DNA of 64,000 nucleotides from positions 2,528,001-2,592,000 of the forward strand of contig CM000207.1 in assembly GCA_000002445.1 (NCBI GenBank). The letters are read 5' to 3'. The notes below the pieces were generated by a model, which was given only the letters and a program-made list of their open reading frames with translations, was not told where the DNA came from and made no database searches. Position 1 is the first letter of the stretch. Each line of letters starts with the position of its first letter. Below are positions 31,499 to 56,805 of the stretch, piece after piece. Source of the stretch: Trypanosoma brucei. Taxonomy: Eukaryota. A program made the translations under genes and the position numbers.

Positions 31499-34400
31499 GC
31501 TGCTATAAATTTCGCATTCCCTAGCGATGCCGGCCACCTCAACGTGGTGCCAGGGTCCATTACCCCGTATCATCGGGGGAAGCCAAGAGCCAGCAGAGTT
31601 CCTTTCATGGGGAACACTGCTGTGCTCCGGCTACGGCATCATACAGCACAGGGATCAGCAGCGTCTTGCTGGGACACCGTTTTTCATTTGTCGGTCCCTG
31701 GGCACGTGGCTAGCGTGCCATCAGCAGTATCATCCGCACTAAGATGCTGCTGTCCGGTGATGTGGAAGAGAATCCCGGCCCGTCGTTGCGCGGGATGCAG
31801 TGGAACTGCGCCGGGCTATCTCAAGGAAAGAGATTAGCACTCCACAAAACCCTTGTTGATGAGCGGATCGCCTTTTGTCTGTTGAGCGAGACAAGGATGA
31901 CGCTTGGAGAGGCGGCTTTCTTTAGCGTTGCTGACTACCAACATCATGGAATAGCTCGTAACTGCAAAGGAGGTGGTGTATCAATACTAGTGAGGGAGGA
32001 CTTACCAGTCGAGACCGGTATGGCCGTTATTGGTCGCATTGAACAAGTGCATGCAACAATTCACCTTGCACGTGGAACGGCGCTGACTGTCACGTCGGCA
32101 TACATCCCACCAAAACACACCTTCACGGCAACTGACCTAGATACGCTTCTGACAACTGACGGTGCCCAGCTCATCGGTGCAGACGCTAACGCACACGCGT
32201 TGGCATGGGATCGCGCGAGCCCACCAAATACCAAGGGTGAAACCCTCACACAGTGGTGCATTGACAACCAGTTTCTGGTATGTAACACTGGTGAGTGCAC
32301 CAGGTACACGCGCCACCACGGGGAGTCCACCCCTGATGTGACACTGTCAAGGAATTGCACAGTGTACACGTGGACATCGCTGTATTCTCCCGATAGCGAT
32401 CACCATCACATATTTTTCGACGATATCGTTGGAGACGACACAGATGCACTGAGTTGCCCGCGGCTTCGAAAGCCCATGTACGCATGGCTAAAAGCTAACT
32501 GGAGGAATTTCCGTCTCAAGGTTCACGAGCTCTGCAGGAAAATTGGTAGAGAGAAGAATGTCAACACTCTGGAACAGAAATTGAGCTCCGCCATCCGCAC
32601 TGCGACGAATGTCTCCGTCCCCCGTGGCTGCAGAGTAACGCCACCACATTGGACACCTGCGCTCGCGAAAATCGATGAAGAGATCGCTGGATGCGCACCC
32701 TCCCACCGAAGGGAAAAGTTGGTAGCCACGCGTAAGCAGATCCTGGACCGTACCACAAAGAAGAGATGGAGCACGCTATGCTCCAGACTTGCGGTGTCAG
32801 ACTGCTGCAGTTGGCACATTGTCAAGAAGGTATATGCGCCACGAACACTAACCACACCGGCTGTACTTGTTGATAACGCGGCCACCACGGACTACCATCA
32901 AGCTGAGAGGTTCAGTAAACTGTACTCGTCCCGTGCAAGAAGGCACCCCGACTCACACCCACCGGCACCAATAAAGACGATAGCGAGTGAGTTCAGTCCC
33001 ATCACGATGGCTGAACTACGGAGATCGATCAAACTGCTACAGAGTGGATCCGCAGCAGGACCTGATTGCTTATACAACGAGGCAATACAACATTTCGGTA
33101 GAACAGCGCTGAATGTTGTTCTGAGGCTATTCAATGAGAGCCTACGAATGGGAGTCGTGCCGCCTGCATGGAAGATTGGTGTTATCATCCCCATCCTGAA
33201 GGCCGGAAAAAAGGGCGGAGGACCTCGATTCTTACAGGACTGTAACACTCACGAGCTGTCTCTGCAAAGTCATGGAGCGCATAATTGCCGCGAGGCTTAG
33301 AGACACTGTTGAGTCCCAGCTGATGCTACAGCAATCAGGCTTTCGCCCCGGATGCTCAACGCTCGAACAACTCCTGCACGTCCGCGCTGCCCTCTGCCGC
33401 CCCACGCACCAATATCGTACGGGTGCTGTATTCGTTGACTACGAGAAGGCATTCGATACAGTAGACCACGACAAAATTGCGAGGGAAATGCACAGAATGA
33501 AGGTATCACCCCACATTGTGAAGTGGTGCGTATCATTTCTGAGTAACCGAACTGGCAGAGTGAGATTCAAGGAGAAGCTTTCCAGAAGCAGAACATTTGA
33601 GCGAGGAGTGCCACAAGGAACTGTCCTTGGCCCAATCATGTTCATTATTGTCATGAACTCGTTGAGCCAGCGCCTTGCAGAAGTGCCGTTACTGCAGCAC
33701 GGATTCTTTGCAGACGACCTGACGCTACTTGCGAGGCACACAGAGAGGGATGTCATCAACCACACACTGCAATGCGGCCTAAACGTGGTGTTACAGTGGT
33801 CAAAAGAGTACTTCATGTCTGTCAACGTAGCGAAAACAAAATGCACACTCTTCGGGTGTATAGAGCGCCACCCCCTTACATTACAACTGGACGGCGAAAG
33901 AATAGGAGCTGACAGGACACCGAAGCTTCTAGGAGTAACATTCCAGTGTCTGCAAGGGATGGCAACACATGCGGCCGAAACGAGACGCAAGATGGACTTC
34001 CGACTACTGCAGATAGTGTCCATCTCAGCTTCTACATGGGGGCCAAGACGACAAGTACTGAGAGCTTTTTATCTAGCACTCGTACAGGCACACACAATGT
34101 ATGGCATTGAGGTATGGTACTGGGACGCTTCGGAACGAAGTCGTGACCTCCTTGCAGCAGCACAACACAAAGCCAGTCGCATCATAGCCGGCATACCGCA
34201 TGGGACGCGCAAAGAGGACTCTCTGCTGGAAGCAAACCTCCTGCCACTCAAGACGGCCACTCTTGTGCGCAGCATGAAATTCATACTGATCTGTGAGTCA
34301 CGAGGCGGATGTTTGCGGCGCAGTGCTGAGGAAGTATACCGCAACAAACACCCAGTCAGAGCCCAACATTCCCGCATCATGCGGTCCTATCCACACCTCC

Positions 34401-36636
34401 GCATTGAGCCACGCGAGCACCCACTAGAGAAATCGACGCTCCGCCACAGCTGTCGACCGCTATTTCACACGCAGATAAAGCCTGTGTGCGCTGATGACCC
34501 TGACGATGTCAAAAGGGAGGCTTCCGAAAAGTGGATTGAACGGCATTTTTCACGGAGGGGGAAGGAGCTACCGCGGCGAGAGCACTACGAATTGTGGACT
34601 GATGGATCCGTGTCCCTCGGTGAGAAGTCCGGAGCAGCTGCCCTGCTCTATAGAAACAATACGCTTATTTGTGCACCCAAAACCGGAGCAGGGGAACTCT
34701 CATGCAGTTACAGAGCGGAATGCGTATCATTAGAGATAGGACTGCAACGGCTGCTGAAATGGCTTCCGGCATACAGAAGCACACCGAGCAAGTTGTCTAT
34801 CTTCTCTGACTCGCCGTCAATGTTAACAGCACTGCAGACAGGCCCCCTAGCCGTAACGGACCCAATTCTAAGACGACTATGGAGGCTTCTGCTTCAAGTT
34901 CAGAGAAGGAAGTTGCGTATCCGACTGCAATTTGTGTTCGGCCATTGTGGCGTGAAACGGAATGAGGTTTGTGATGAAATGGCCAAAAAGGCCGTAAATT
35001 TACCACAGTTGCGAGACACATAGATCCCCGACATCATTGCTTATGCGAAGCGAGTGCTTAGGTCGGAAGAAGTCCATGAGAACACTCATAGGTTTGGTAT
35101 CACGGGCAACAACTTTCCAACAAAGCATAAAGAAAAACTGACGAGGGAAGAAGAAACGGCACTGGCACGCTTTCGGGTTGGGTCTTCAAGACACTATGGA
35201 TGGATGTTGCGAAAGATCAACCCGAGTGTGCCTCCACAGTGCCGATGGTGCAACCCGCAAAATGCAGAGATAGGGCCAACAATACAAACAGCCCCAACTG
35301 TTGCGACACGCACTCTTCAGAGAACCTCCGAACCGACAAAATGTACGGAATGTGATGCCACATACCAATGCCGCTCGAGTGCTGTAACGCATATGGTAAA
35401 CAAACACGGCTTTGTGCGAGCTGATGCCCTCCGGAGGATCAAATACGGCGATGCAACACCTGCAGTGGATATCCCCCCGGAGCCCCCTCCAGTGGTGCCT
35501 ATCGTCCCTCTACCATCGAGCACACGAGTCCCGATGAGACCGCAGGTACTTCATTGTACCATCTGTGCCTCCAAATTCGCAGTGCCAGGCCGACTATTAC
35601 ACCACCTTAGAACAATACATGGTATAGGCAGCGGTAGTTGCCGCGTGAAAAGGGGGCGAGAGAACGAGGACTCAGTGCAAGGAGATGGTAGAGCCCCAGC
35701 AGCGCCAGTCTCTCAGGATACACGGAAGCTGCCGTTTCAATGTGACCTGTGCGAGGCGAGCTTCGGTACACGCTCTTCCCTGTCACTACACAAGAAATTC
35801 AAACATAAGAGCATAGTGACGGAGGACGGTACCGTAGTGGTGGTGCAATTCCCTCGTAAGCTTGCCCGTGAGGAAAATGTTGACGTCCCGGGGAAAGGCG
35901 AGGTGCAGTGTGGTGTGTGTCAAAAAGTGCTCAGTTGCAGGGACTCCCTCATCCGACACTGTAAGGCTTTCCACAAAGGTGAGGGAGTCGAGCTTAAATG
36001 CAGCAAAAGCACAAAATTGTGTGCCACTGATTCCCCGCATACAAACACATCCATGTTGGTGTGCCCGACATGCGGAAGGCAGTGTGCTAGCAAAACTGGC
36101 CTCACCCTACATCAAAAGAAGATGCACGGTATGAAGGTAGAGCGCGCTGTTACCATCCAACGCGGCGACTTCGAAGAAACGTCGCTGCACTTGATGAGCT
36201 GCCCCTGTTTGAAGGAGTTACGTGTCAGGTTTGCGGTAGAAGGTGAGTGTGTGCAGGATGTATGTTTTTCTAAAAGGCTGGCGCAGTTTCTCATTGCGGT
36301 TGAACGGAACCTGCCGCAGGTGAAGTCCTCACCTAAGGTAACAGTCATACAACCCACTCTCCCTTCTGCAACTTCCCCCCTTATTGCCGAGTGTGGAGCT
36401 AGCAGGAAAAGCACCGGACGCAGGAATAGTCCATACACCCTCAGAGACAGAGAGGGTATGCAGTCAACAAGCAACAGGAACAGAAAGAGGGGGAGAGAAT
36501 AATAAACGAATAACAAAAATCAAAACAAAAGGATTGCTAATTGACATCTTTTGGAGAGTCCGGGTTGGGTGGCTTCTCGCCCCATCTGCTGTATTCCGTT
36601 CAACTGCGGAGCTACAACAAAAATTATAGAGAGTGT
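31499..36636 (+). mobile_element. ingi retrotransposon, degenerate copy. It is 3'-truncated by about 130 bp and joined directly to a 70-bp repeat.
   Basis: Its 5' end (ccctagcgatgccggccacctcaacgtggtgccagg) is homologous to copies A and D. The ORF is split into 31744..33300, 33272..35023 and 35054..36502. The last ingi-homologous bases (ctacaacaaaaattatagag) run straight into gagtgtgttgtgagtgtgcatatacgaatattataataagag. Confidence 0.9.
31744..36502 (+). pseudogene. ingi polyprotein pseudogene. It has a +1 frameshift in a G-run near 33205 and a TGG-to-TAG nonsense change at 35021-35023. The MLLSGDVEENPGP 2A-like start is retained.
   Basis: Alignment by eye against copies A and D: B reads aaaaaagggcggagg where D reads aaaaaaggcggagg, and B reads gacacatagatcc where D reads gacacatggatcc. 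Confidence 0.85.
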
Positions 36637-36790: not shown

Positions 36791-37683
36791 GAAAAGCAAT
36801 GATAAAAACGAAGGCAGAAGGGGTTTGACAACGGCTATGAACAGGTAACAGAACAAGAAAACCACCGGACGGTAAGTGACAGCGTCCATAGACCAAGTCA
36901 GATCCAGATTACAACCGGCAGTAACAGCAGCCAGCCGACCCGAAGCCACCACCTCAAGCGCTAGAACAGGCAGGACAAGCAATGCCTAAAGCGTCAAACA
37001 TTCGACTCTGACATAAACTCGCAGTGACAAACCAACAGCTGCGGAGCCAAAGGCGGCGGTAGCGCTACCAGATCACAAGAGAACAGCAAAAGGATGAACA
37101 AATAAAGACAAACCGACACCGGCCTACAACCAAAAACCAAAACCGCCACCAAGTACAGGCATCGGTATAAAAACTGTTTTTACACCAGCTTTAATGCAGA
37201 ACGACCGCAGAAAACGGCGCACACGGCCTTAGAAATGAGCACTCTAACCCAGCTTAAACCAATAACGCCACAGCGCCTGCAAGAACAAAAAAAAGGGAAA
37301 ACAGCGGCTTTTAAACTGCTGCTAAAGTCTAATAAATTTAACTAGAAGTTGAAACAGCACACAATGAGTGGCAATATCTGATAACGAAAACGCAGCAAAA
37401 GCAGGCGGCAGCGTCAGCAAAGCACTAAATACAACACTGAAACCGAACGACGCAAAACCAAAGCAGCAAGAGTCACCGCAGCATCAGCAAACGAGACCAA
37501 CAAACTTACGGAAAAGAATCAGGACACAATTGGCCTAAACCCTAAGCCACAGCAACGGCACTTTCTCAGAGATGTGCAAAGAAACCAGATTTTACGCTTT
37601 TACAAAGACGCCACAAACGCCAAATCTCCTAAATCTCCGCAGTCCAAACACCTACGAAACCAAACAGCAAGAGAAAAGCAAAT

Positions 37684-39050
37684 GTGGAGACTAAAAGCGT
37701 TAGCAATGCTAATAGCAACAATACCAAGCTCAGCTGCAGCAGCGAAGCAAGAAGCAAACAGACCCCAGTGCGGCAATCCGTGCGGTTGCATGGTGCGCAT
37801 CGACGTGCTGTTGGAAAGGCTGGAAAAAGCGGCAAGCACAGGGGTAGCGAAAATTTCAGGAAACGCAGAAGCAATGCAGCAGCTAGCACTAGGAGCGGCA
37901 AGCACAGACGACAAGGTAGCACGGCTTCTAGCACCATTGCTAGCCGTAGCAACGCACGTAAACGCAGAAGCGACGGCAAAGCTCTCAGCAGCACCGGACA
38001 CGATCGCAAGGGCAACGGCGCTACTAAATAAAAAGAAAGCAGTGCAAGAAGCTAAAAAACGGCTGTACGGTAGCTATGAGGCGGCAATTTTAACGAGAGC
38101 CAGCCACTTCGGCGACGCCACGTACGCGCCGAAGACGCACAAGCAAGCACCGCGGACAGCGTGCGGAGAATTCCAGGACGATGCCTATTTTTCTCTGGAC
38201 GAGCTTAATTTTGACCATGATGCCGGACTAGGCGACTCAAACCTAGGACTAAACGTCAAACAGGCTTGCTACAAAAGCAACCCGGGCTCACCGTGCGACG
38301 CAAGCGGCAGCACCGACAAACTAAGCACAGCAATAACTATAGCGCCCGCGGCAACGGCCACTGCGTCAGGACCACTTGCAGGCGGCAATGAAAAGATCAC
38401 AACGAAGGCAACAATAACACTGGCCAATGAAACTGACGATGAAAAGACGGTACTCAAAGCGGCGCAGACGGCCGAAAAACACCTAACATCAGTGCCAGAC
38501 CTATCAAAGCTAAGCACGTACACGGACAGCACAGCATTCAAATTACTAGTAAACCGATTAGTGATGGGGACAGCAGCAGACAGCCCAATACAAGGAAAGA
38601 TGGCTGAAGAAACGGCCAACTTTATAACCAAAAATTACGGCAAAGACGACGAAGAGTTTACAAAAAACATATGGGAAAAAATAAAAACAGCCACGACAAT
38701 ATACTACGAAGATAAGGCAAAAAACAAAAAAGATCAAAGACCTAACCGAAACCGAACAAGTCACCGCGCTAACACCTGCATTTTTAAAGGCGGACAAAGA
38801 AACGCCAGCAACGATAAAAGAGACAACACCAGCAGGAACAGGAGAAAAACCAGATACAGAAGACAAAACAGAAAAGAAAAACGTGGATAAAAAGGACGAG
38901 GTTTGCACAGGCGCTGAAGAAGGTAAATGTGACAAGACAAAATGCGATTGGAACGCAGAGAAAAAACAGTGCAAAGTTAAAGAGGGGGCAGTTACTATTT
39001 CAGCTGTAATTAAAGCCCCTCTTTTGCTTGCATTTTTGGTTCTAGCTTAA
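37684..39050 (+). pseudogene. VSG pseudogene. It is frameshifted near 38720 and ends ...CDKTKCDWNAEKKQCKVKEGAVTISAVIKAPLLLAFLVLA*.
   Basis: ORF 37574..38890 contains the signal peptide MWRLKALAMLIATIPSSAAAA. Its C-terminal domain and GPI signal lie in another frame. It is a close paralogue of the C-terminus of the 21081 VSG. Confidence 0.75.
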
Positions 39051-39302: not shown

Positions 39303-39533
39303 TAATAATGATAATGATAATAATAGAAGAGTGTTGTGAGAGCGTGTACATACGAATATTATATTAAGAGCAGTAATAATAATAATAATAATGATAATAA
39401 TGATAGGAAAGTGTTGTGAGAGTGCGTATATACGAATATAATAATGAGAGCAGTAATGATAATAATAATGATAATGATAGGAGATTGTTGTGAGTGTGTA
39501 TATACTAATATTATAATGAGAACAGCAATAATG
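39303..39533 (+). repeat. 70-bp repeat block (3 units)
   Basis: Three cores are present: agaagagtgttgtgagagcgtgtacatacgaatattatattaagag, ggaaagtgttgtgagagtgcgtatatacgaatataataatgagag and ggagattgttgtgagtgtgtatatactaatattataatgag. Confidence 0.9.
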
Positions 39534-41285: not shown

Positions 41286-42797
41286 ATGATATCATGGCTA
41301 GCGAGGACCGCAATTTTTCTGAGGCTTACGGTGCCAGCGATGCATGCGGCCACAAACCCAGGTGATAACGCCGCAGAGTTCAAGGCGCTTTGCGCAGTCA
41401 TAAAACTAGCGAAAATACAGCCGAGTGACCTGCAGCCTGGGACCGAAGCCGAGAAAGCTCTCAAAGAAATTGAAGTGTTAAACATGTCGGTAGCTGACGA
41501 GAAGTGGCAAAAACAATATGGCGATGGAACAGAAAAGTTTGCTTGGTCAACTTTCGAATCAAAATTAGGAGACACCGACCCCAAAAAACACTGGAAAGAG
41601 AACTGGCAAAACTGGCTTGACACAAAAAAAAGACTGGAAGCCGCAAAAAAAACTGACGAATGGAAACACACCCACCCTGCGCCAGCAAGCTCCGAGGCAA
41701 GGCAAGTAGCATCAAAGCAAATAGCAGCTCTAACAGCGGCAGCGACCAAACTGTACCAAGATTTCAAGACAAAAGCGGACAACCTGAACACAGCTGACAG
41801 AGAGGCAGTAACCTCGGAACTAGCCAAGGCGCTGCACGGAGCAGACAAGGTTACAGCGGAAGGCCAAGTCACACCGCACAAGACGCCCGACGGAGTACGA
41901 AGCGGCACCAGCTGCAACGCCGCAGCTAGCGGCCAGCGCCTGTTAACGGACCTCATGTGCATCTGTGCAGGACAAACACAACTGACAAGCAAAGCGTGCA
42001 CCACGACACCACTCTCAACGGGGTGGACAGGCGGCTTTGGAAACGCTGCCACACAACAAGCGGAACTGGAGGCAAAGTGCGGCACAGGATATCCAGCAGA
42101 TCTAACAGCGGAAAATATAGAGAACGCTGTACATGGCCTCGAAATCTTGGTCGGGCGGCATAGCGGCACCAACAACAAGGGCGGCTACCTCGGCAAAGAC
42201 GCAGGCGCAAATTGCGATGGCACTGACGGCAACATCTGCGCCGACTATACCAACTACTTCAAAGATGCGGCAAACACAGCCGACGCAGAACTACCGTGGG
42301 CGAAACACACGCGACTAGCAGCAACCGCCTTGATAAACAGGGCTAAAAACTTCAGGGCGGCCGAAGGGCTAGCGGAGCGCATTGAAACGATAAAAATACA
42401 GACAGAATCCACTTTCCAACTAACGCAGTTCACATTTCCGACGCAAAAAGCGGAGGCGGCAGAAGAAGAGCTCACCACAAGCAAAAATAAAGACTGCAAT
42501 AATCACAAAACAAACTCAACCTGCACAGAAAATAAATGCAAATGGGAAGGAACAAGTGAAACAGTTGGGGAATGCAAACCTAAAGATGGGGAGAATAAGA
42601 CAAACGCAGCAGGGACAGAAGGAGCTGCAGGAGCAACAAACTCCGAAGCCAAAAAGTGCTCTGAAAAGAAAAAGCAAGAAGACTGCAAAGATGGCTGTAA
42701 GTGGGAGGGAACAGAGTGCAAAGATTCCTCTATTCTAGAAAACAAACAATTTGCCCTGAGTATGGTTTCTTCTGCATTTGTTTCCTTGATTTTCTGA
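41286..42797 (+). CDS. VSG, intact (503 aa). It has a signal peptide and the canonical long GPI signal ...CKDSSILENKQFALSMVSSAFVSLIF*.
   Basis: It is a full ORF. The N-terminus is AIFLRLTVPAMHAATNPGDNAAEFKALCAVIKLAK, and the C-domain carries the CKWEGTSETVGECKPK and CKDGCKWEGTEC motifs. Confidence 0.85.
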   Translation: MISWLARTAIFLRLTVPAMHAATNPGDNAAEFKALCAVIKLAKIQPSDLQPGTEAEKALKEIEVLNMSVADEKWQKQYGDGTEKFAWSTFESKLGDTDPKKHWKENWQNWLDTKKRLEAAKKTDEWKHTHPAPASSEARQVASKQIAALTAAATKLYQDFKTKADNLNTADREAVTSELAKALHGADKVTAEGQVTPHKTPDGVRSGTSCNAAASGQRLLTDLMCICAGQTQLTSKACTTTPLSTGWTGGFGNAATQQAELEAKCGTGYPADLTAENIENAVHGLEILVGRHSGTNNKGGYLGKDAGANCDGTDGNICADYTNYFKDAANTADAELPWAKHTRLAATALINRAKNFRAAEGLAERIETIKIQTESTFQLTQFTFPTQKAEAAEEELTTSKNKDCNNHKTNSTCTENKCKWEGTSETVGECKPKDGENKTNAAGTEGAAGATNSEAKKCSEKKKQEDCKDGCKWEGTECKDSSILENKQFALSMVSSAFVSLIF

Positions 42798-42833
42798 ATT
42801 TTCCACCGCCTTCCTTTAAGAAATTTTGCTATT

Positions 42834-42849
42834 TGATATATTTTGACAC
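42834..42849 (+). promoter_or_regulatory. VSG 3'UTR 16-mer variant (tgatatattttgacac)
   Basis: Motif match, with 1 mismatch. Confidence 0.75.
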
Positions 42850-43440
42850 CTAAAATTTTCCCTGGAAATTTTTTTGTTGGCTGTAAAAAATCTGATTCTG
42901 TGATTTTTTTCTGGAAACTAAAAGAATTTTTTTCAACTATTTTTCTTGAATTTTTTAGGGCTATGTCTTAGTTTTTTTTAATTTCCGTTTCCGCGTTTAG
43001 CGGTTTTTTTGACATTTCTATTTTCGCAACAGCAGTGCCTCAATTTTTTACCCCACTTTCGACTTTCTTTCAATTTTTTGTGTCTTTAGTTTTTTTTAAT
43101 TTTTTTATCTTCACTTTTTTAATTTTTTTTATTTTACATGCCGACAGCAATTTTTTTCGGCAACGAACTTTTTTTTTTTTTGCAGCGGTGGTGTTTCGGG
43201 TTAAGGTGTTGAGGGTTAGGGTTAATTTTCCTCTTCCTGCTAATTATTTTTTTACCCCACAGCTCCGTTCTGTATTGCTCCGCTTTTTTTTAATTTTTAT
43301 TCTTTTAGTGACTCAGCGGCTATTTTTTATTTGCAGCAGCAGTGTCAACTCGATTTATTATGTTTTTTTAATTTTTTAAATTTTCTTAATTTTTTTATTC
43401 GTTTTTTTAATTTTTTTCTTAAACAGTGGCGCATGACCTA
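42850..43440 (+). repeat. T-rich block with a repeated ttttttaatttttttt motif and degenerate telomeric hexamers (gggttaaggtgttgagggttagggttaatttt). It is homologous to 54210-54520.
   Basis: TTAGGG-like units sit at about 43196-43232. The motif ggttagggttaattttcctct is shared with 54375-54398. The 3'UTR start is also shared (tgatatatttt[g/a]acacctaaaat). Confidence 0.7.
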
Positions 43441-43799
43441 TGGCGCTGCGAGCCGTTTTCTTTTTACACTGGCACGGGGAGTTTTGGTGCTCGAAACGAT
43501 TTGCTTTTTAAGAGACGGTAACGAAAAAATCTTAATATTTGGAAGTGGCAGAATATGGAGTTCGGAAGATAAAGCCAGCCGACATGGCAGCCTGGACTGG
43601 TTGCGGCACGCCACAACAACCTGGCCAAAGCAATCGGATGCGGCGAGCAGTTAACTTGTGCGTCAGCAGGCCAATGCGTGCACATTGCCATGCCGCAACA
43701 AATCCGGCAGCAGATGTAAAGCACCTTAATGCAGGGCTCCATAATCACCACGGGTATAAATTCACCGCAAAAACCAAGCAACAAGCCAACAGTAGAGGA

Positions 43800-44190
43800 A
43801 CAGAATAAATGTAAAACTCCAGCAAACAAAACAGCAGACGGGTGTGCGGCTATTGAATATGACTATGACTATGATGAAACTTACAAAGAATGCAAACCTA
43901 AATCAGGAAAAGAAAACACATCAACAGGAACAGGGGAGACAAGTACCGGGGTAGACTGCAGTAAACACCAAACCAAGCAAGCCTGTGAAGCTGAAAACAA
44001 GGATGTAAAACCTGGTCAGAAAGCAGTATCTGGATGTATTGAAGATAAGTGTAAAGATTTATTTTTTCTCGTCAGTAAGAATTTTGCTCTGATGGCTGCT
44101 TCTTTTGTGAGCTTGGTACTATTCAAGGATTTTGAATTTTTAAATTTGTTATTTAGAGAGAATTTGATATATTTCAACACCTCTAGATGA
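43800..44190 (+). pseudogene. VSG C-terminal-domain-only fragment (...CKPKSGKENTSTGTGETSTGVDCSKHQTKQACEAENKD...CIEDKCKDLFFLVSKNFALMAASFVSLVLF). The stop is lost, giving a read-through extension.
   Basis: ORF 43729..44190. There is no N-terminal domain or signal peptide, and no 70-bp repeat upstream. The 16-mer follows. Confidence 0.7.
44165..44180 (+). promoter_or_regulatory. VSG 3'UTR 16-mer variant (tgatatatttcaacac)
   Basis: Motif match. Confidence 0.7.
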
Positions 44191-44329
44191 TGATGTGCAA
44201 ATTTTAAAAACACAAAATTATAAAATTATGGTTTCAAATTGGTCCATGGTCGTATCGTACTAATTTTATAAGAATATTAAAAGATTTATAGTGTAATTTG
44301 CTTTATTTTTCTTATTTTATGAACGTTAG

Positions 44330-44412
44330 TTAGGGTTATAATGGTGAGAGTAATAATGATAAAGATAGAGAGTGTTTTAAGTGTGTAAATACGAATATTA
44401 TAATAAAAGTGG
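44330..44412 (+). repeat. 70-bp repeat (one unit)
   Basis: gataaagatagagagtgttttaagtgtgtaaatacgaatattataataaaag. Confidence 0.8.
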
Positions 44413-46177
44413 TGGTGAAGAATAAATGAACAGAAGAAGTGAACCTCCTCAAAAATGGCAAAGGTACAATAAAAGTAAGTGAATTGATGTGAGGGTGAGA
44501 AAGAGAGAAAAACTGGAAAGAGAAAACAAGGAGTTTTATTAAAAGAATGGGGAGCGAAAGAGATAAATGAGGAAGTGAGGAAAGGGAAAAAGAACGATGG
44601 AATATACTGAGTTTTAAACACAATCATATTGATTGGCATGATTATACAAAGGGGTATGGAAAGTGAAATGAGGGAGAGAGTATGTGTACCGTGGAGAAAA
44701 CAAATATAGTTTCTACGTTATATGCAGGAACAGTGAGAGAAGAGAAAATATAAGAAAAGAAGATGAGGAGTGAAAGAACTGGAGGAGCTGTAGAGTAGCA
44801 CAGAGGTTAATAATACAAGAATATGTTGCGCTCCTCATTCCCAGACAAATATGGGCTGGTGCTGCTGTGCATATGGTTAAGATTGTAGTTTGTCATCTGA
44901 TTTCAGATCCTAATGTCTACCTATCAATAACAAATAGGTGAAAGGGATTGGATAAATGTGATGTAATGTTAAAGTTTTCTTATCATTTTTACTAGTAAAA
45001 GCCAACATTAGAGTCAGAAACAATATGGTATTTTTCGGAGGAAGATTTTAATACTGAGATTACAAATCTATTTCTGTGGAAAGCAAAAGAATTATTAAAA
45101 TCGGTAAATGTTTAAAAAAGTATGTATGAATCAACCGGGATGCTTTATTGAAGTGAAGAGAATTAATAGTGATACTCTTTCATTTCCATATTGATGTGCT
45201 TTTCAGACATGGAGACTTCTCAAAGAGAAAATAATTAGTATAAAAGTGGTCTCTGAGCAAAACTAACGGGTTGTATTGACGATTATAAGGCAGCGATGAA
45301 GTTACATTCGGGAAGAAAAGCACTGACTATTAAGCATCTGACAGAGTTATTTACGCAAAAAGCGTGGCTAAAACACAAAGCCAATCTTATTCACGAACAA
45401 CAAAAACGCCTCCTTGTTATAGCACCACCATTTAATGGAAGATTTCCGACAGTAGCGTGTGACAAAAAACATAAGATTCAAATTTTTAGGCATAGAGATG
45501 TGTGAAGTTTTCTTACTTGTAACAGAGGCTCAGACTCGCGGCGGCACAGAGTATATTCAATATATATATATATAGGGAACGATGAAGACGATCAAGACGG
45601 AAATATCAGACTTCCTTGTGAAAAAATAGGAAATCAAAACTATAACGGTGTTTGTATTTACAAATTTTTATAAACGTCAAAAACACTCGCAACACGATTG
45701 AAAAAGCGGAGGTGGGAAGCCGGAAAGATTAATTTAAATAAACTGAACGCAGGGCTAGAACCATCGATTCAAGCGCTCACGACAGACAAAATCTCAATAG
45801 AAAAATTTGCGGTTACTTAGCACCATGCCGCCGTGAGCAGATGAACCGTTCCTAATTTACGAGTGTAGCCTTGCCACCGCCGAACAGATCGCAGTAGGAA
45901 ATAAGCGGTAGACAGTCACAGCGCAGGCGGGACCAACGCCAACCCAGGCGATATTTAATCGCAAGGTTAGGCAAACACACACCCTGCAAGTCAACAAAAC
46001 TCCTCATATTTGTCATCTCTTCGTGAATTTTACTGATTACTTTTGTAAATGAGCGGCAAAGATTTTGTTGTAAAAACTAAGCTGCTTTAGGCAGGGTTCC
46101 TGCAATAGCACAGGGAACTGAAGAGATTTATAAGATTATAGCGGTTACAGAAACGCGATACACAAATTAATCAACCC

Positions 46178-51016: not shown

Positions 51017-51098
51017 GTAATTTCAATAATAATAATAAAAATGAAATGAGAGTGTTATGAGTGTGCATATACTAATATTAAAATAAGAGTAGTGTACC
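51017..51098 (+). repeat. 70-bp repeat (one unit)
   Basis: aataataataataaaaatgaaatgagagtgttatgagtgtgcatatactaatattaaaataagag. Confidence 0.8.
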
Positions 51099-52726
51099 TT
51101 TATCACAGTAAATGCAAAAGAGTAGAAATTAAACGAACTGCAACTGAGGAGTGAGTGCGTGGAAGTAAGTGGGAGAGAACTAGAAATATTGTTAAAGGAA
51201 AAGTATAGAGGGGGCGAAATATGTACATGCTCAAAAAAAACATAACTATGGGTGCCATCATACACAAGGAGGTGATAAATGGGAAAGTGTAGAAAAGTAA
51301 AGAGTCAAGTGGACAGGCCAAAGGTGTTACCGAAGAAAATACAAAGGAGGAGTGAAAGTTGGAACTGGCTAAAACCACCATCGCCAAAATGTTTTTAAAA
51401 ACTATTTGAATAATACATTTTTTTCGCTCAAAGCACTGTTATGAATAAAAAGCAATCTAATATAGAGAATGCAGCCGACTACAGCTGTAGGAGCGATCTA
51501 AAAGTACTTCACTCATAAAAAGTAAAAAATTGGATATTCAGCAATAAGGAAAGCGGCTGATGAGTGAGGAAACTTTCTAAAGCGATAATAGTAGCATCAA
51601 ATTTAGAGAGAGTAGCAGAAACCGGAAGCACGCATCGGAATCAAAAAAGACAGAACTGAAACTGTTATTACATCACAAGATAGTGTAGGACTAGACAGCA
51701 TTAGCAGCCCCTATACCCATATAAATTGTAAAACTTATTAAGAGAAGACAATGTTTTCGATGCTTTTTGGATATAAGCATGTAAATATTTTTTAAAACCT
51801 CAAAGGGTAAATTTAAAAGATTATGTACGAATTTACTAACAGCAGTATAATTGAATCTAAATTAAAAAACATATACAAACAAATAGCTGACACTTTGCAT
51901 AAACATTTACTCAAATTAAAGCTTTCTGTATTGTCATGTTTAAGAGAGAACAATGGTAGTGAAGGGAATGGAACTGAGAGAAGCGTCTAGGATGTGCTTG
52001 AAATCCACTGGGCGCAGTAAAAGAGTTACCGAAACTTATTATTTAACATAAAACTGCCGATATTTTTAGTTGAAAGAGCAGCAAGGCAAGCATCTATGTT
52101 CGCCCTGAATTTGTAGGAGAGTTCAAAAAGGGATATAGCATGAGAAGTCAAAAGAAGACAAAGAAAAACTTCCGATCATGCCAGCAAACAACCTAAATAT
52201 TATCCAACTCAAAACAAATGAGCCAGAGCAGCTCGTAACCAAACCAATGCTAGGAGACACAATTACAAAGCTCGTTCATTGAGGCCAGAAAAAGCATTAC
52301 AGTGGAAACCCCGGAGTAAGCATGGGATATTCTGACATGGTCAAACAATTCGAAGCGCACAAACTACTACAACCTGCAGCGTCATCCTTAACGATCCAAT
52401 TGGCTTCGTGGAAATGTCATGCAAGCAGATTTCCTGGTAGGACCGGACGTAAGCAGCGTGTAAAACAATGTCATATTTAGCATAACCAGGTATAACATCC
52501 GATGCAGTCTATTATAAGCAGTTTTTAAAAAAAATGTTTGTAGTGGAAAGTCTATAAAATCCCCGAAAAAAATGCACAATTATGTATAACACCAGAGCGC
52601 AGGCCACCATCGAACGCCCACTGTCAACAGCTGTATAGACAGCTGTTCCGCAAGCCAACCCCAACAGAAAACCCGTACAGTGACGCCACATGAAACTTAT
52701 TGTATACGAACTAGCAAAAAATAGGA

Positions 52727-54150
52727 ATGAAGATCGTACATGTATGCATACATCTTCTACTCGCAACAGCCATAAGCGCTCAAGGATCAATCCATGACGC
52801 AACAGACACCCCTAAAACAGCCTGCCAAGCGAAGGCACAGCTCAAAGCCATGGCTACAAAGTTGGAAGGAGCAGTCAAGACACAAGCTGACCAGATCGCT
52901 GCGGCTTTGCCAAAGTTTTTGCAGCTCTATGCAGCAGCCAGCACCGAAGTACTAACTGGAACCCAGAAACTCATGCTACTGCTGCCAGCCGCCGCAGCAA
53001 ATTTACAAGCAGCTTCAAACAATCTACAGCAATCCCAGACGACGATTCTAGAAGCATCTAGAGCCCTAACAGAACTGGCAGGAGTGCAACAAATGGTAGC
53101 CGAGGCAGGCGCAAGGGAAATAAACGGAAAAAACGCGGCCGTGGCAGCAACTTGGATAGGCGCCGCCGGTATGCAAATAAAGCTGAAAGATCTCAGCGGA
53201 AAACATCCGGAGTGCACTGAGCCATCTCCAAGCACATCAGGTCCCAAGCAGCCGAAAACACTAGTACACAGCACCTATCCAATAACGGTTATACACCTAG
53301 CAGCGGCAGACGACATACAGGCAGGCCAAAACGGTAACGGGCCACGAATCTGCGGACACTCAAGCACAACCCCGGCTCTACAGTGTCAGCTTGACGCACA
53401 AACCAACACAGGCAACCTTCTGCTAACGCCAGGCAAGCTGACAAAGCCATTACAAGCAAACTACCAGCCAGCATCACCGTCAGAAAAGGCGTACAAAGCA
53501 GCGCCAGCAAGAGCAGCCGGCCTGATGCCTCCGCAAAAAACAGTAGAGGAATTGCTAGCCACCCTGCACACAGCAGAAGCTGCAGCAGCGACGCTAACAT
53601 TTAAAGCAAGCGATATTGACCCAGCGCAACTCATTAACGACGCGGAGACGGATCAAGCCCTACTTCAAATACTAAAACCCGGCGAAAAACGGAGCAAAAT
53701 AGGAGACTACACATAGCAAATAAACGAACTCAAAAAAAACTATACGCAACCGACCAAAGTGACAACGCTGAAAAACTCAATAAGGCTTTAGAGTTGACAA
53801 AGACGACGGCGGAAAGCAGTAGCGAGCACAAAACTGAGGCCTTAAATGCTGTAACAGACTTCACTCAACTGGCCGCCTCAACAACACACAATATGTTGGC
53901 CGCAACGAAAAAAAACGCAGCAAGCGAAAAAAGTACACCAAAGAAGAACGAGTATAGCTGCGATGAAAAAGAAAAGGACAAATGCGAAGGCGATTGTCAA
54001 TGGGATAAAAAAGAGGGAAAGTGCAAACCCAAAAGTGGAGAAGAGGAAGTGAAAGCAGGGGATGATGGAAAAACAAACACAAACACCACAGAAAGCAATT
54101 CGTTTCTTATTACCAAGGACCATCTATTGCTTGCATTTTTGCTTTTCTAA
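52727..54150 (+). pseudogene. VSG pseudogene. The ORF is 329 aa up to the TAG at 53716, and the C-terminal domain plus GPI signal (CEGDCQWDKKEGKCKPK...SFLITKDHLLLAFLLF*) lie in another frame.
   Basis: The signal peptide is VCIHLLLATAISAQG. The C-domain ORF is 53794..54150. Confidence 0.75.
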
Positions 54151-54193
54151 ACAAATTTTCCCCCTCAACTTTCTTAAAGAATTATTGCTACTG

Positions 54194-54209
54194 TGATATA
54201 TTTTAACAC
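54194..54209 (+). promoter_or_regulatory. VSG 3'UTR canonical 16-mer (tgatatattttaacac)
   Basis: Exact match. Confidence 0.85.
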
Positions 54210-54520
54210 CTAAAATCGACCGAGAAATTGTTATTGTTGGCTTCCTGCGCGTGTAAATTTTTTTGTTTCTAAATATTTTTCTCTTTTTTTCTGTTTTTTG
54301 TCTAGCAAAAAAAAGGTAAGAAGGAGGTTATGGAGGGTTTTCCTTGCTCAGAATCAGTCTTAGGGGTATGGTTATTTGGGCTAGGGTTAATTTTCCTCTA
54401 ACTGTTTTTTTTATTTTTTTATTTTTTTATTTAATTGTTTTTTGTTTTTTCTTTTTTTCACTTTTTTTTACAATACGTTGCTAATTTTTTAATTTTTTAA
54501 AAGTGATGCGTACGTCGTTT
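54210..54520 (+). repeat. T-rich block with degenerate telomeric hexamers (cttaggggtatggttatttgggctagggttaattttcctct), homologous to 42850-43440
   Basis: It shares the motifs ttttttatttttttatttttttatttaatt and agggttaattttcctct with the other block. Confidence 0.7.
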
Positions 54521-55054
54521 ATCTCCATTTATATGAAATCAATTGAAAATAGCGTTATTTGTTATTTTCTAACAAGTCAATATTTTGTTTTTTGCATTTG
54601 TTTCAGGAAGATTCAAAAAACCTAACATTGTAAAATGTACCATAAAAAACGAAAGTGAAATAAAACGCATTATGCTTCTGAGTTTGATCTTATTACAAAT
54701 TTTGGGTATTCATTGTACATTTTTTAATTACATCACAAACTTGTTGAAAAATAAAATTTAAGCTGCCATATCTATCGGTTACTAAACGTTTCTGTGGTTT
54801 TCAAACACCTTCGTCACAACTTGCATATATGGCTTCCATAAAACTGTGATGATTTAAGTCTACTGAGAAACTGTATAGAAGAATCACCGGTAAATCTATG
54901 ATCTAAGCAGCGCTCAGTAGCTGTTCGTAACATTAAAGATAACAATTAATCTGTTTCCGATTGTACACAAAAAGGTCAAGAACAGGCAAAACATGGTATC
55001 AGCGGCTGTAGTAGCTTTTTTTAACGCTTCCGACAGCCAGATCAGTGAACACTA

Positions 55055-56431
55055 ATGCTCGGGCCTTTTCAGTTTTTTTTCGAAACCTACAGGATTACTT
55101 TGAAACAAGTAACAAAAGAGGTGTTCAGCGATCTACCGCAAAAGCCTTTAACAGAAGAACTAAACGACTTGCAAATGGTAACTTTACAGGGCAAAAATTT
55201 CACAAACGCAACGCACGGCGAGTTCTCAACACCAATTGCCTGGGCCAAGAAAAAAAGCGAACTCTTAAGAGCAAAACCTGGCACACCCACACACAAACAG
55301 CTAAAACGTTACAGCGAAACGAAGCTAACAGCGGTCATAAACGACAGGATTATGCCCCTACAACAAGAAGCCAAAACAGTATCAGACAAATATGACAAGG
55401 CCAACAGCGACGTAAACCAAGCAGTGATCGATGCCAACACGTTCCTGAAAGCAGCCCGCAACGGCGCAAACGATACAGCAGACGACGCACAAGCCGCATT
55501 CGACACGAGGGACAAAGCATGCGCAACGGCAGACGGCAGCTCAGCGGGCAAATCGATAGTGTCGGACGTAGCATGCCCCTGCAGCGGAACCGGTGCATCA
55601 AACCTATGCTACAACGGCAACAGCAATACAGACTACGCCAGCGGTGCTACGGCAGCAGAGGCGCTAACAGCATGGTGTGCAGTAAAAGCGACATGCAAAG
55701 CGCAGGGGCAACAGCAGGTCCCAACGGGCGCCCAAATCACCGCAACTATTTCGGCACTCGAAAGACACCTTGGAGCGGACGCCACGGGCGTCGATGCCAC
55801 GACAATACTCGGAGGCGGGACTTCAGCTAACTGCAACGGTGGAACGGGCGTGGCAAACGCGTGCGTCGACTACAAGAAACGGATGTCAGGGCACGGCATA
55901 GCTGGGATCCCATGGGTTCAGAATTTGCTGCAAGCAGCGCAAGCCTTACAAAGAGGCAGACAAGCGACTGCAGAGTTGAAAGAAAGTGCAGCCGCTATGA
56001 AATCGATCACAGCAAGTGCATGGAGACTACACGATATGCTAGCAGCCAACGAGATGATAAACACTGAAGCCAAGCAAGGAGAACAAAAAGTAAGTGATAA
56101 AAAAGTAGACGAGTGCATTTCAGCAGGAGACGACACCGCTAAATGCAATTCGGCCAAAGGAAAGGGATGTACTTTTAACGAAAAAGGAGAAGAGGGAGAA
56201 AAGTGTGAGTTGAAAAAGGAAGTAATAGAATCTCTAAAAGAAGAAAACCAAGAAGGCAAAGATGGGAAGAAAGAGGAGAAATGTGCAGGGAAGGAGCAAG
56301 GAGACTGCGAGAAAGCTACTTGCTGCAAATGTAAAAATAATGCTTGTAAAAATTCCAGTATTCTTGTAAATAATAAATTTACATTGAGTGATGCTGCCTA
56401 TATGGGTTTGGTGGCATTTTTAGAATTCTAA
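55055..56431 (+). CDS. VSG (458-aa ORF) with a canonical GPI-signal C-terminus (SILVNNKFTLSDAAYMGLVAFLEF*). The N-terminus lacks a recognisable signal peptide, so it is probably 5'-degenerate.
   Basis: The C-domain (CKCKNNACKNSS) and N-domain body (ACPCSGTGASNLCYNGN) are VSG-like. The ORF begins MLGPFQFFFETYRITLKQV, which is not hydrophobic. A short hydrophobic ORF (MVSAAVVAFFNAS) lies out of frame just upstream, at about 54993. No 70-bp repeat lies upstream. Confidence 0.6.
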   Translation: MLGPFQFFFETYRITLKQVTKEVFSDLPQKPLTEELNDLQMVTLQGKNFTNATHGEFSTPIAWAKKKSELLRAKPGTPTHKQLKRYSETKLTAVINDRIMPLQQEAKTVSDKYDKANSDVNQAVIDANTFLKAARNGANDTADDAQAAFDTRDKACATADGSSAGKSIVSDVACPCSGTGASNLCYNGNSNTDYASGATAAEALTAWCAVKATCKAQGQQQVPTGAQITATISALERHLGADATGVDATTILGGGTSANCNGGTGVANACVDYKKRMSGHGIAGIPWVQNLLQAAQALQRGRQATAELKESAAAMKSITASAWRLHDMLAANEMINTEAKQGEQKVSDKKVDECISAGDDTAKCNSAKGKGCTFNEKGEEGEKCELKKEVIESLKEENQEGKDGKKEEKCAGKEQGDCEKATCCKCKNNACKNSSILVNNKFTLSDAAYMGLVAFLEF

Positions 56432-56514
56432 AGAGTGTTGCACAGTCTTATAAAATTTATGAGCATTTACTATTTTTAGAAAAATTTCAAAAATTGCTAA
56501 ATCTTGCTATAATT

Positions 56515-56530
56515 TGATATATTTTAACTC
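56515..56530 (+). promoter_or_regulatory. VSG 3'UTR 16-mer variant (tgatatattttaactc)
   Basis: Motif match. Confidence 0.7.
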
Positions 56531-56709
56531 TTTTTGATGAGAATATGCAATTCAGTGAAATTTCGAGAATTTTAAAATGTATATATATATTAGGAAAATT
56601 TGTACGAAAGGAGCACATAGGGGTAACGTAATATAGTGATAGGGTACGAAATTTTTACTATTTTAAAATTATCTGTATTTTTTATTTTTTATGAATTTTA
56701 GGGGTTATA

Positions 56710-56805
56710 GTCGTGATAATAATAACAAAACAAAAACAATCATAGTAATATGGTAATTTTAATAATTATTATGGAATTGTGTTTTGGGTGTGTATCACTA
56801 TTGTG
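56710..56805 (+). repeat. Degenerate 70-bp repeat
   Basis: gtgataataataacaaaacaaaaacaatcatagtaatatggtaattttaataattattatggaattgtgttttgggtgtgtatcactattgtggag. Confidence 0.5.

What the first reader, a model, noticed from the sequence alone, without database searches (positions are those of the whole stretch)
54210..56431. Both telomere-like blocks are followed by 5'-truncated VSGs lacking an upstream 70-bp repeat
After the first block comes a C-terminal-domain-only VSG fragment (43800-44190). After the second comes a VSG whose body and GPI signal are intact but whose signal peptide is missing or out of frame (55055-56431). Neither has a 70-bp repeat upstream, unlike every other cassette. The recurring order is VSG, then the telomere-like tract, then a headless VSG. 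This is consistent with break-induced joining of a telomere-proximal end onto the interior of another VSG.
Basis: inference. Interest (0 to 1): 0.55.

Follow-up and report, generated by a model that had tools for sequence, protein, structure and literature searches.

The report
Telomere-type VSG flanks inside an array
In this trypanosome coat-gene (VSG) array, two genes carry the downstream sequence normally found next to chromosome ends, and each is joined straight onto a damaged neighbouring gene cassette that has lost its usual upstream repeat; this looks like a scar of past recombination, and the second "headless" gene in fact has its head, broken only by two one-base frameshifts.

Summary
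The window is a Trypanosoma brucei brucei TREU927 subtelomeric VSG array.

Confirmed:
- Two T-rich blocks (42850-43420 and 54210-54504) directly follow a VSG 3'UTR.
- They are homologous to each other.
- They replace the usual spacer plus 70-bp repeat.
- No 70-bp repeat, even a weak one, lies upstream of the next VSG in either case.
- The first block is followed by a C-terminal-domain-only fragment.

Wrong: the VSG at 55055 is not 5'-truncated. Its start codon (54993) and signal peptide are present. Deleting one T from each of two T-runs restores a 478-aa ORF. It is an ordinary full-length frameshift pseudogene, and only its cassette's 5' flank is cut short (489 bp left).

The blocks match the known "TTAGGG-like" 3' flank of telomere-proximal VSGs. 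The same flank occurs on a T. equiperdum contig that ends in TTAGG-like repeats. A third case of VSG, then block, then CTD-only fragment without a 70-bp repeat occurs in T. b. equiperdum.

Best reading: these are relics of telomere-proximal cassettes joined illegitimately to arbitrary points of other cassettes. The exact route is inferred, not shown. Interest is modest.

The parts
39305..39529 (+). Three 70-bp repeats at the head of the cassette that carries block 1
   Evidence: TRF period 80, 3 copies; nhmmer E about 1e-16 to 1e-17
41286..42797 (+). Intact type-B VSG (503 aa), 100% identical to a TREU927 VSG
   Evidence: Pfam VSG_B 4e-78 plus Trypan_glycop_C 2e-24; P0006 100% identity, TREU927, 3,057,547-bp record
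42835..42849 (+). VSG 3'UTR 16-mer core (GATATATTTTGACAC)
42850..43420 (+). Block 1: telomere-type VSG 3' flank, 52% T. It has a TTAGGG-like cluster at 43183-43226, the 22-nt motif at 43213-43234 and TTTTTTTAA repeats at 43064-43129 and 43363-43417.
   Evidence: collinear homology with the L001 block (43213-43330 ~ L001 16331-16444, 78%, E=2e-13)
43421..43790 (.). Unexplained 370-bp spacer (50% GC) between block 1 and the CTD fragment. It has no recognisable VSG N-terminal domain and no match elsewhere in the window, in L001 or in L002.
43729..44190 (+). CTD-only VSG fragment. The Pfam CTD match starts about 43810. It has an internal deletion relative to its relatives, and the normal stop is lost, so the ORF runs into the 3'UTR.
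   Evidence: Pfam Trypan_glycop_C 7.5e-15 only; alignment to P0004
44166..44416 (+). The fragment's own array-type flank: 16-mer at 44166-44180, then a 70-bp repeat at 44347-44416
51026..51094 (+). 70-bp repeat at the head of the cassette that carries block 2
   Evidence: nhmmer E=2.7e-15
52727..54150 (+). VSG pseudogene (in-frame stop at 53714-53716, then a frame change; C-terminal domain and GPI signal end at 54150) whose 3'UTR runs into block 2
   Evidence: sequence read
54195..54209 (+). VSG 3'UTR 16-mer core (exact GATATATTTTAACAC)
54210..54504 (+). Block 2: telomere-type VSG 3' flank, 52% T. It has a degenerate TTAGGG-like cluster at 54314-54391, the 22-nt motif at 54378-54399 and a (TTTTTTTA)n tract at 54400-54504.
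54505..54992 (+). Residual 5' flank of the next VSG (488 bp). It has no 70-bp repeat and no similarity to other cassettes. It is shorter than any other distance from a 70-bp repeat to a start codon in the window (0.8-3 kb).
54993..56431 (+). Full-length type-B VSG pseudogene (counterpart of 'VSG 773'). The start codon is at 54993. +1 frameshifts lie in the T-runs 55016-55022 and 55073-55080. The annotated 458-aa ORF starts at 55055.
56516..56795 (+). This VSG's own array-type flank: 16-mer at 56516-56530, then only a degenerate 70-bp remnant at 56761-56795
   Evidence: nhmmer E=7.7

Best explanation
The interval is a junction between two VSG cassettes in a T. b. brucei subtelomeric array. It is not a single element.

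What the parts are:
- 54210-54504 is the 3' flank of the upstream VSG pseudogene (52727-54150). It is of the 'telomere-type': T-rich, with degenerate TTAGGG-like motifs in the G-strand orientation. This flank normally lies between a telomere-proximal VSG and the telomere repeats.
- In this array it takes the place of the usual roughly 200-bp spacer plus 70-bp repeat.
- It is joined at about 54505 to the shortened 5' flank of a full-length, frameshifted type-B VSG pseudogene (54993-56431).
- Block 1 (42850-43420) is a second, independent case, joined to a spacer and a CTD-only fragment.

Most likely history (inferred):
1. A cassette of telomeric origin (70-bp repeat, VSG, telomere-type flank) was copied into, or came to lie in, the array.
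2. Its upstream side was resolved by homology, at the 70-bp repeats.
4. That removed the other cassette's 70-bp repeat and a variable amount of its 5' part.

The remnants are inert archive material. The T-rich tract probably served originally as the polypyrimidine signal for 3'-end formation of a VSG that has no downstream gene (inference only).
For: Shown:
- Identity of the locus: Pfam VSG_B and CTD hits; 100% match to a TREU927 VSG; the ORF at 55055 is 457/458 identical to 'VSG 773'.
- Two flank classes exist. In array-type flanks the 70-bp repeat begins 155-245 bp after the 16-mer. The two blocks instead start CACCTAAAAT and have no 70-bp repeat.
- The blocks form a conserved family. Block 1 matches block 2. 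Block 1 is collinear with the L001 block at three anchor points.
- The post-16-mer flank of T. equiperdum contig L002 has its best matches at the same relative position in L001 (E=2e-7) and in block 1 (E=6e-4), and not in any array-type flank. That contig ends in GGTAGGTTAGTTAGGTTAGT about 150 bp after an intact VSG.
[quoted passage not shown] The distance from VSG to telomere repeats is 200-1590 nt in expression sites, and cassettes can be copied into another cassette instead of replacing it (PMC2567434).
- The junctions are independent: sequences distal to the blocks are unrelated to each other and to L001 and L002.
- All VSGs keep one orientation.
- A third instance, with a CTD-only remnant, is in L001.
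Against: - The TTAGGG-like motif density is not by itself above chance, and there is no canonical (TTAGGG)n tract.
- I could not compare the blocks with a bona fide expression-site or minichromosome flank. L002 ending at a telomere is an inference from a contig end.
- The parental sequences are unknown, so no junction microhomology can be read.
- One-step aberrant conversion cannot be told apart from a fossil chromosome end that was later extended.
- Only three instances were examined, and the genome-wide frequency is unknown.
- The 370-bp spacer at 43421-43790 is unexplained.
Confidence: 0.65

Rival explanations
1. Fossil chromosome ends. Each block marks a former chromosome end (a VSG plus its subtelomeric flank) that lost its telomere repeats. 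The end was then extended distally, either by break-induced replication into another array or by capture of an acentric array fragment. On this view arrays grew by serial terminal additions.
For: It gives the same anatomy as the best explanation: the flank type, all VSGs in one orientation, independent junctions at arbitrary cassette positions, and recurrence at an unrelated locus. Break-induced replication to telomere-adjacent VSGs is documented for breaks in the active site (PMC12137147).
Against: It needs two events: creation of the end, then loss of all repeats plus capture. None of the three blocks ends in canonical TTAGGG repeats; all end in the T-rich part. The data here cannot separate it from one-step aberrant conversion.
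Confidence: 0.25
2. One reading: both blocks are joined to the interior of a VSG coding sequence, leaving two headless (5'-truncated) VSGs.
For: This holds for block 1 (CTD-only fragment) and for the L001 instance.
Against: For 55055 the start codon, the signal peptide and 488 bp of 5' flank are present. Two single-T deletions restore a 478-aa ORF. The Pfam match begins at profile position 95 for ORF residue 62 only because the N-terminus of this subfamily is divergent. The reconstructed protein gives residue 83 against the same position 95.
Confidence: 0.05
3. The blocks are simply an alternative, native inter-cassette spacer of VSG arrays with no telomeric ancestry, and the TTAGGG-like motifs are a coincidence of composition.
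For: Hexamer density is within the range of simulated sequence. There is no canonical repeat tract.
Against: The same flank on L002 runs into TTAGG-like repeats at a contig end. The literature describes TTAGGG-like repeats 3' of telomere-proximal VSGs. The motif orientation matches the telomeric G-strand. In all three internal cases the blocks are followed by broken cassettes and never by a normal 70-bp repeat.
Confidence: 0.12
4. An assembly artefact: telomeric reads were mis-joined into the array, or homopolymer errors created the frameshifts.
For: Both frameshifts lie in T7 and T8 homopolymers, which are typical error sites. Apparent frameshifts in a T. brucei assembly have been reported as artefacts (title of PMC8445201).
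Against: An independently deposited protein ('VSG 773', M4SVA3, 1 aa different) starts at the same internal ATG (MLGPFQ...), so at least the second frameshift was seen independently. The same architecture exists in a T. b. equiperdum chromosome-scale assembly.
Confidence: 0.03

Closest known systems
3' flank of telomere-proximal VSG genes with 'TTAGGG-like' repeats (Aline & Stuart 1989, Exp Parasitol 68:57, as cited in Hall et al. 2013, PMC3708902)
   Same: It lies directly after the VSG 3'UTR, is T-rich, and carries degenerate TTAGGG-like motifs in the G-strand orientation. Its length (about 300-1100 bp) falls within the 200-1590 nt reported between VSG and telomere repeats (PMC2567434). It is homologous to a flank that ends in TTAGG-like repeats at a contig end (L002).
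   Different: Here it is internal to an array and is followed by another VSG cassette, not by telomere repeats. I could not read the 1989 sequences, so the equivalence is by description, not by alignment.
VSG archive pseudogene classes (Berriman 2005 and Marcello & Barry 2007, as summarised in PMC5814966: 7% functional, 9% atypical, 18% fragments, 66% full-length pseudogenes)
   Same: 43729-44190 is a typical gene fragment (CTD only). 54993-56431 is a typical full-length pseudogene with frameshifts.
   Different: Both lack the upstream 70-bp repeat that every other cassette in the window has, because a telomere-type flank abuts them.
Interstitial telomere-like sequences as scars of chromosome rearrangement (general eukaryotic phenomenon; own knowledge)
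   Same: Short, degenerate telomere-like motifs sit at an internal site that marks a junction between unrelated segments.
   Different: There is no canonical repeat tract and no head-to-head (TTAGGG)n(CCCTAA)n fusion signature in the window. The motifs are embedded in a conserved subtelomeric flank and were not added by telomerase at a break.
[quoted passage not shown] 2008, PMC2567434), and microhomology-mediated joining in T. brucei (PMC2377438)
   Same: The order is an incoming cassette followed by the remnant of a resident cassette in the same orientation. The upstream boundary is at 70-bp repeats and the downstream boundary is non-homologous.
   Different: That case was described for expression sites. 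Here the recipient is a silent array and the incoming cassette carries a telomere-type flank. The mechanism is inferred, not observed.

Membership tests
VSG, N-terminal type B plus C-terminal domain | Pfam PF13206 (VSG_B) and PF10659 (Trypan_glycop_C) above the gathering score; GPI-signal-like C-terminus | tested here: met
   55055-56431: VSG_B 5.8e-34, CTD 1.8e-14; ends ...SDAAYMGLVAFLEF
Full-length VSG pseudogene (frameshift class) | Start codon and signal peptide are present at the DNA level, and the reading frame is interrupted only by small lesions | tested here: met
   tblastn with VSG-1799 covers residues 1-290 in three successive frames from 54993. Deleting one T in each of two T-runs gives an open 478-aa ORF.
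5'-truncated VSG / gene fragment | The N-terminal coding sequence is absent upstream of the retained part | tested here: not met
   Not met for 55055-56431. Met for 43729-44190: only the CTD is detectable in any frame. Also met for the L001 fragment at about 16900-17205.
Array-type VSG cassette | At least one 70-bp repeat 0.8-3 kb upstream of the start codon | tested here: not met
   nhmmer --max at E<=100 finds nothing in 41407-44260 or in 51094-56761. Other cassettes score E from 1e-5 to 1e-17.
Telomere-proximal VSG 3' flank ('TTAGGG-like' type) | Follows the 3'UTR 16-mer directly, is T-rich, and has TTAGGG-like motifs in the G-strand orientation | tested here: met
   Motif density alone is not above chance.
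Telomere-proximal VSG 3' flank ('TTAGGG-like' type) | Homologous flanks elsewhere run into genuine telomere repeats | tested here: inconclusive
   The L002 flank is homologous, and its contig ends in GGTAGGTTAGTTAGGTTAGT. A contig end is not proof of a telomere, and no expression-site or minichromosome sequence was available.
Canonical telomere tract | Tandem perfect TTAGGG repeats | tested here: not met
   The best stretches are GGGTTAGGGTTA (block 1) and CTAGGGTTA (block 2). TTAGGGTTAGGG with <=2 mismatches is not enriched (8 found against 3.2 expected; 4 of 100 shuffles reach 8).
Telomere-telomere fusion scar | Head-to-head (TTAGGG)n(CCCTAA)n with inverted flanking genes | tested here: not met
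   All VSGs are on the + strand. No CCCTAA-oriented cluster lies in the window blocks. The L001 block does contain isolated CCCTAA-oriented bits.

The most novel reading that the evidence does not exclude
Internal telomere-type flanks are fossil chromosome ends. On this reading, VSG arrays grew distally by repeated loss of a telomere followed by capture of another array segment. A genome-wide map of these blocks and their junctions would then give a layered record of array growth, and would identify which archive genes descend from telomeric (expression-site or minichromosomal) copies.
Probability: 0.25. Interest if true: 0.5.

Novelty: new member of a known kind. Interest (0 to 1): 0.3.

Why it matters
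If the reading holds, these blocks are cheap sequence markers for traffic between telomeres and the silent VSG archive. They also mark non-homologous junctions in a genome that repairs mostly by homology and microhomology. That bears on how the antigen archive is built and remodelled. It does not point to a new element or mechanism: the flank type, the pseudogene classes and cassette-into-cassette errors are all described. In practice it corrects one annotation-level point: 'VSG 773' is a full-length gene with two T-run frameshifts, not a truncated one.

Tried and rejected
- The look-up of encoding contigs returned nothing for the window's VSGs or for P0001, P0002 and P0006, so TREU927 and Lister 427 DNA is not in that index. 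The paralogue's upstream flank and the genome-wide frequency therefore could not be examined.
- I searched for shared breakpoint features between the two junctions. Local alignment of 43400-43800 against 54470-55000 gives only T-runs, within the shuffle range.
- I searched for VSG N-terminal-domain remnants in 43421-43790, by hmmscan of three frames and by tblastn with 44 VSGs. Only sub-significant hits appeared. A 'HAATNP' match to the N-terminus of the neighbouring VSG (E=0.17) was not supported at the DNA level and I rejected it as chance.
- Blastn of 54505-54992 and of 43421-43800 against the window, L001 and L002 gave no matches.
- An Rfam scan of the whole window found nothing.
- A global MAFFT alignment of the two blocks mis-anchored the motif and was not used for coordinates.
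- Literature searches for 'telomere-like' or interstitial repeats in VSG arrays found no description of this arrangement. Marcello & Barry 2007 and Cross et al. 2014 are not held, so prior description cannot be excluded.
Full report
WHAT THE WINDOW IS

Pfam scans of the large ORFs give VSG_B, Trypan_glycop (type A) and Trypan_glycop_C domains, and ingi-like retroelement ORFs (reverse transcriptase, endonuclease, RNase H, zinc fingers). The intact VSG at 41286-42797 is 100% identical to a T. brucei brucei TREU927 VSG on a 3,057,547-bp record. The ORF 55055-56431 is 457/458 identical to UniProt M4SVA3, 'Variant surface glycoprotein 773'. The window is therefore a TREU927 subtelomeric VSG array, with all VSGs on the + strand.

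CASSETTE MAP

I combined three data sets: the 3'UTR 16-mer search, a core-motif scan for the 70-bp repeat and an nhmmer profile built from eleven in-window 70-bp copies. Ordinary cassettes read: 70-bp repeat, then 0.8-3 kb, then the VSG, then the 16-mer, then 155-245 bp, then the next 70-bp repeat.

There are two exceptions. After the 16-mers at 42835 and 54195 the sequence continues CACCTAAAAT... into T-rich blocks (42850-43420 and 54210-54504, both 52% T). No 70-bp repeat follows. Even at E<=100 with all filters off, the profile finds nothing in 41407-44260 or in 51094-56761. The statement 'unlike every other cassette' is nearly correct, because the cassette after 56431 has only a degenerate remnant (56761-56795, E=7.7).

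ARE THE BLOCKS REAL AND TELOMERE-LIKE?

The TTAGGG-like content alone is weak:
- The best stretches are GGGTTAGGGTTA (block 1) and CTAGGGTTA (block 2).
- A doubled-hexamer search is not enriched.
- The peak density of near-hexamers (4 per 60 bp) is within the range of Markov-simulated sequence.

What is significant is the combination of other features:
- The two blocks hold the four most T-rich 150-bp windows of the 64 kb.
- They are homologous to each other. The 3'UTR-proximal 90 bp are 79% identical, a 22-nt motif GGGTTAGGGTTAATTTTCCTCT is 95% identical, and both have TTTTTTTAA-type repeats.
- They belong to a family found elsewhere.

In a 20.8-kb T. b. equiperdum locus (L001, CM010680.1), a VSG pseudogene is followed by a 1.1-kb block of the same kind. 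That block is collinear with block 1 at three anchors (42906-42931 ~ 15688-15712; 43213-43330 ~ 16331-16444 at 78%, E=2e-13; 43367-43415 ~ 16526-16573).

On a 3.9-kb T. equiperdum contig (L002), an intact VSG with an upstream 70-bp repeat is followed by the same flank, and the contig ends in GGTAGGTTAGTTAGGTTAGT. The post-16-mer part of that flank finds its best matches at the corresponding position of the L001 block (E=2e-7) and of block 1 (E=6e-4). It does not match any array-type flank.

Hall et al. [quoted passage not shown] Hertz-Fowler et al. 2008 give 200-1590 nt between VSG and telomere repeats in expression sites (PMC2567434). The motif orientation (TTAGGG on the VSG sense strand) is that of a real telomere distal to a VSG (established knowledge). 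I therefore call the blocks telomere-type VSG 3' flanks. I could not align them with a bona fide expression-site flank.

WHAT FOLLOWS BLOCK 1

ORF 43729-44190 matches only the C-terminal-domain model. Its closest database relatives align only from the hinge and CTD region onward, and they show that the fragment carries an internal deletion. The 370 bp between the block and the fragment (43421-43790, 50% GC) contain no recognisable VSG N-terminal domain in any frame and match nothing in the window, L001 or L002. A weak 'HAATNP' resemblance to a VSG N-terminus was not supported at the DNA level. The spacer is unexplained.

WHAT FOLLOWS BLOCK 2

The paralogue VSG-1799 (P0002, 77% identical) has an intact N-terminus, MLLAALVPFFLTLPTARSANANAQAFSVLCAAYRITL. 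tblastn places its residues as follows:
- residues 1-10 at 54993-55022
- residues 10-28 at 55018-55074 (84% identity, E=3e-7)
- residues 26-290 at 55067-55861 (78%)

These segments lie in three successive reading frames. The frame changes fall in a T7 run (55016-55022) and a T8 run (55073-55080). Deleting one T from each gives a single open 478-aa ORF from 54993 to 56431 that begins MVSAAVVAFLTLPTARSVNTNARAFSVFFETYRITL.

The apparent absence of the first 94 profile positions in the Pfam hit reflects subfamily divergence and not truncation. The reconstructed protein aligns residue 83 to the same profile position 95. The Cys of the N-terminal FxALC motif, which is in the A2 consensus and is FSVLCAAY in VSG-1799, reads FSVFFETY here, so the gene is probably dead even with the frames restored.

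This VSG belongs to the common class of full-length frameshift pseudogenes, not to the fragment class (66% against 18% of the archive; PMC5814966). What is truncated is the cassette. Only 488 bp of 5' flank remain between the block and the start codon, less than any other distance from a 70-bp repeat to a start codon in the window (0.8-3 kb).

IS THE ORDER RECURRENT?

Yes, within the small sample. Window block 1, window block 2 and the L001 block are each followed by a 5'-incomplete cassette in the same orientation with no 70-bp repeat. In L001 the remnant is again CTD-only (about 16900-17205, ending ...CHDSSILVKTRIALMADAFLSLMPL*), and an ingi element follows it immediately.

The three upstream VSGs, the three remnants and the sequences just distal to the blocks are mutually unrelated, so these are independent events and not copies of one event.

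Part of the regularity is automatic, however. In arrays the 70-bp repeat sits about 200 bp downstream of the preceding VSG. A flank that lacks the repeat, joined anywhere inside another cassette, necessarily leaves a remnant without a 70-bp repeat.

MECHANISM

Shown: a telomere-type flank abuts unrelated cassette interiors at independent points, with orientation preserved.

Inferred: the block-bearing cassettes descend from telomere-proximal copies. Their upstream ends were resolved by homology at the 70-bp repeats. T. brucei repairs chromosomal breaks by homology and microhomology (PMC2377438). Copying one cassette into another instead of replacing it has been noted for expression sites (PMC2567434).

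The main alternative gives the same anatomy: a former chromosome end that lost its repeats and was extended by break-induced replication or by capture of a distal array segment. It cannot be excluded. The absence of canonical repeats at the distal end of all three blocks fits either copy-tract termination inside the flank or a terminal deletion into it.

An end-to-end telomere fusion is not supported, because it would invert the distal genes. An assembly artefact is unlikely, because the independently deposited VSG-773 protein starts at the same internal ATG and the same architecture occurs in a different assembly.

COMPARISON AND NOVELTY

Every component is of a known kind: the telomere-proximal VSG flank with TTAGGG-like repeats, CTD fragments, frameshifted full-length pseudogenes, and illegitimate cassette junctions. 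I found no paper in the searchable library that describes telomere-type flanks inside arrays followed by cassettes without a 70-bp repeat. The two most relevant archive papers are not held, so I cannot claim this is undescribed. I rate it a new member of a known kind, of modest interest. It could serve as a marker of telomere-to-array traffic if a genome-wide scan bears it out.

Noticed in passing
window 55055-56431: The frameshifted pseudogene ORF differs by a single residue (K146Q) from UniProt M4SVA3, 'VSG 773'. To my knowledge that entry comes from the Lister 427 VSGnome, while the window matches TREU927. If so, this dead gene, including its internal-ATG ORF start, is almost unchanged between two strains whose VSG repertoires otherwise differ.
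   Followed up: partly
window 21081-22598 and 37574-38890: Two long ORFs sit in canonical cassette positions, with a 70-bp repeat upstream and a 16-mer downstream. The first has a signal peptide and a VSG-like C-terminal domain and GPI signal. Neither hits any Pfam VSG model at E<=0.01, so they are probably divergent A-type N-terminal domains that the models miss.
   Followed up: no
window 43421-43790: A 370-bp, 50% GC stretch lies between block 1 and the CTD fragment. It matches nothing in the window, L001 or L002 and has no recognisable protein homology. A 121-aa ORF on the minus strand (43464-43829) overlaps it.
   Followed up: partly
L001 15980-16000, 16435-16450, 16630-16645: The T. b. 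equiperdum block contains isolated CCCTAA-oriented motifs (CAGACCCTAACCCTCC, ACCTTAACCCTT, CAAACCCTAACC) interspersed with the TTAGGG-oriented ones. It also has a recurring ...CAGCGGCTATTTT... submotif that is present in window block 1 as well (43313-43330), which suggests a modular sub-repeat of about 200-300 bp within these flanks.
   Followed up: no
window 11370-16900 (-), 31744-36502 (+), 59077-end (-); L001 17258-20777 (-): Ingi-type retroelements interrupt the array. One copy (11821-16401) has a single 1526-aa ORF, while another is split into three ORFs. In both the window (59077) and L001 (17258) an ingi end abuts a VSG 3' region within about 50-100 bp of the GPI-signal end.
   Followed up: no
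window, all array-type cassettes: The distance from the 3'UTR 16-mer to the start of the next 70-bp repeat is tightly constrained (155-245 bp in 8 window cassettes and 2 L001 cassettes). The distance from the 70-bp repeat to the VSG start varies from 0.8 to 3 kb. This fits cassette boundaries being set at the 70-bp repeats.
   Followed up: partly
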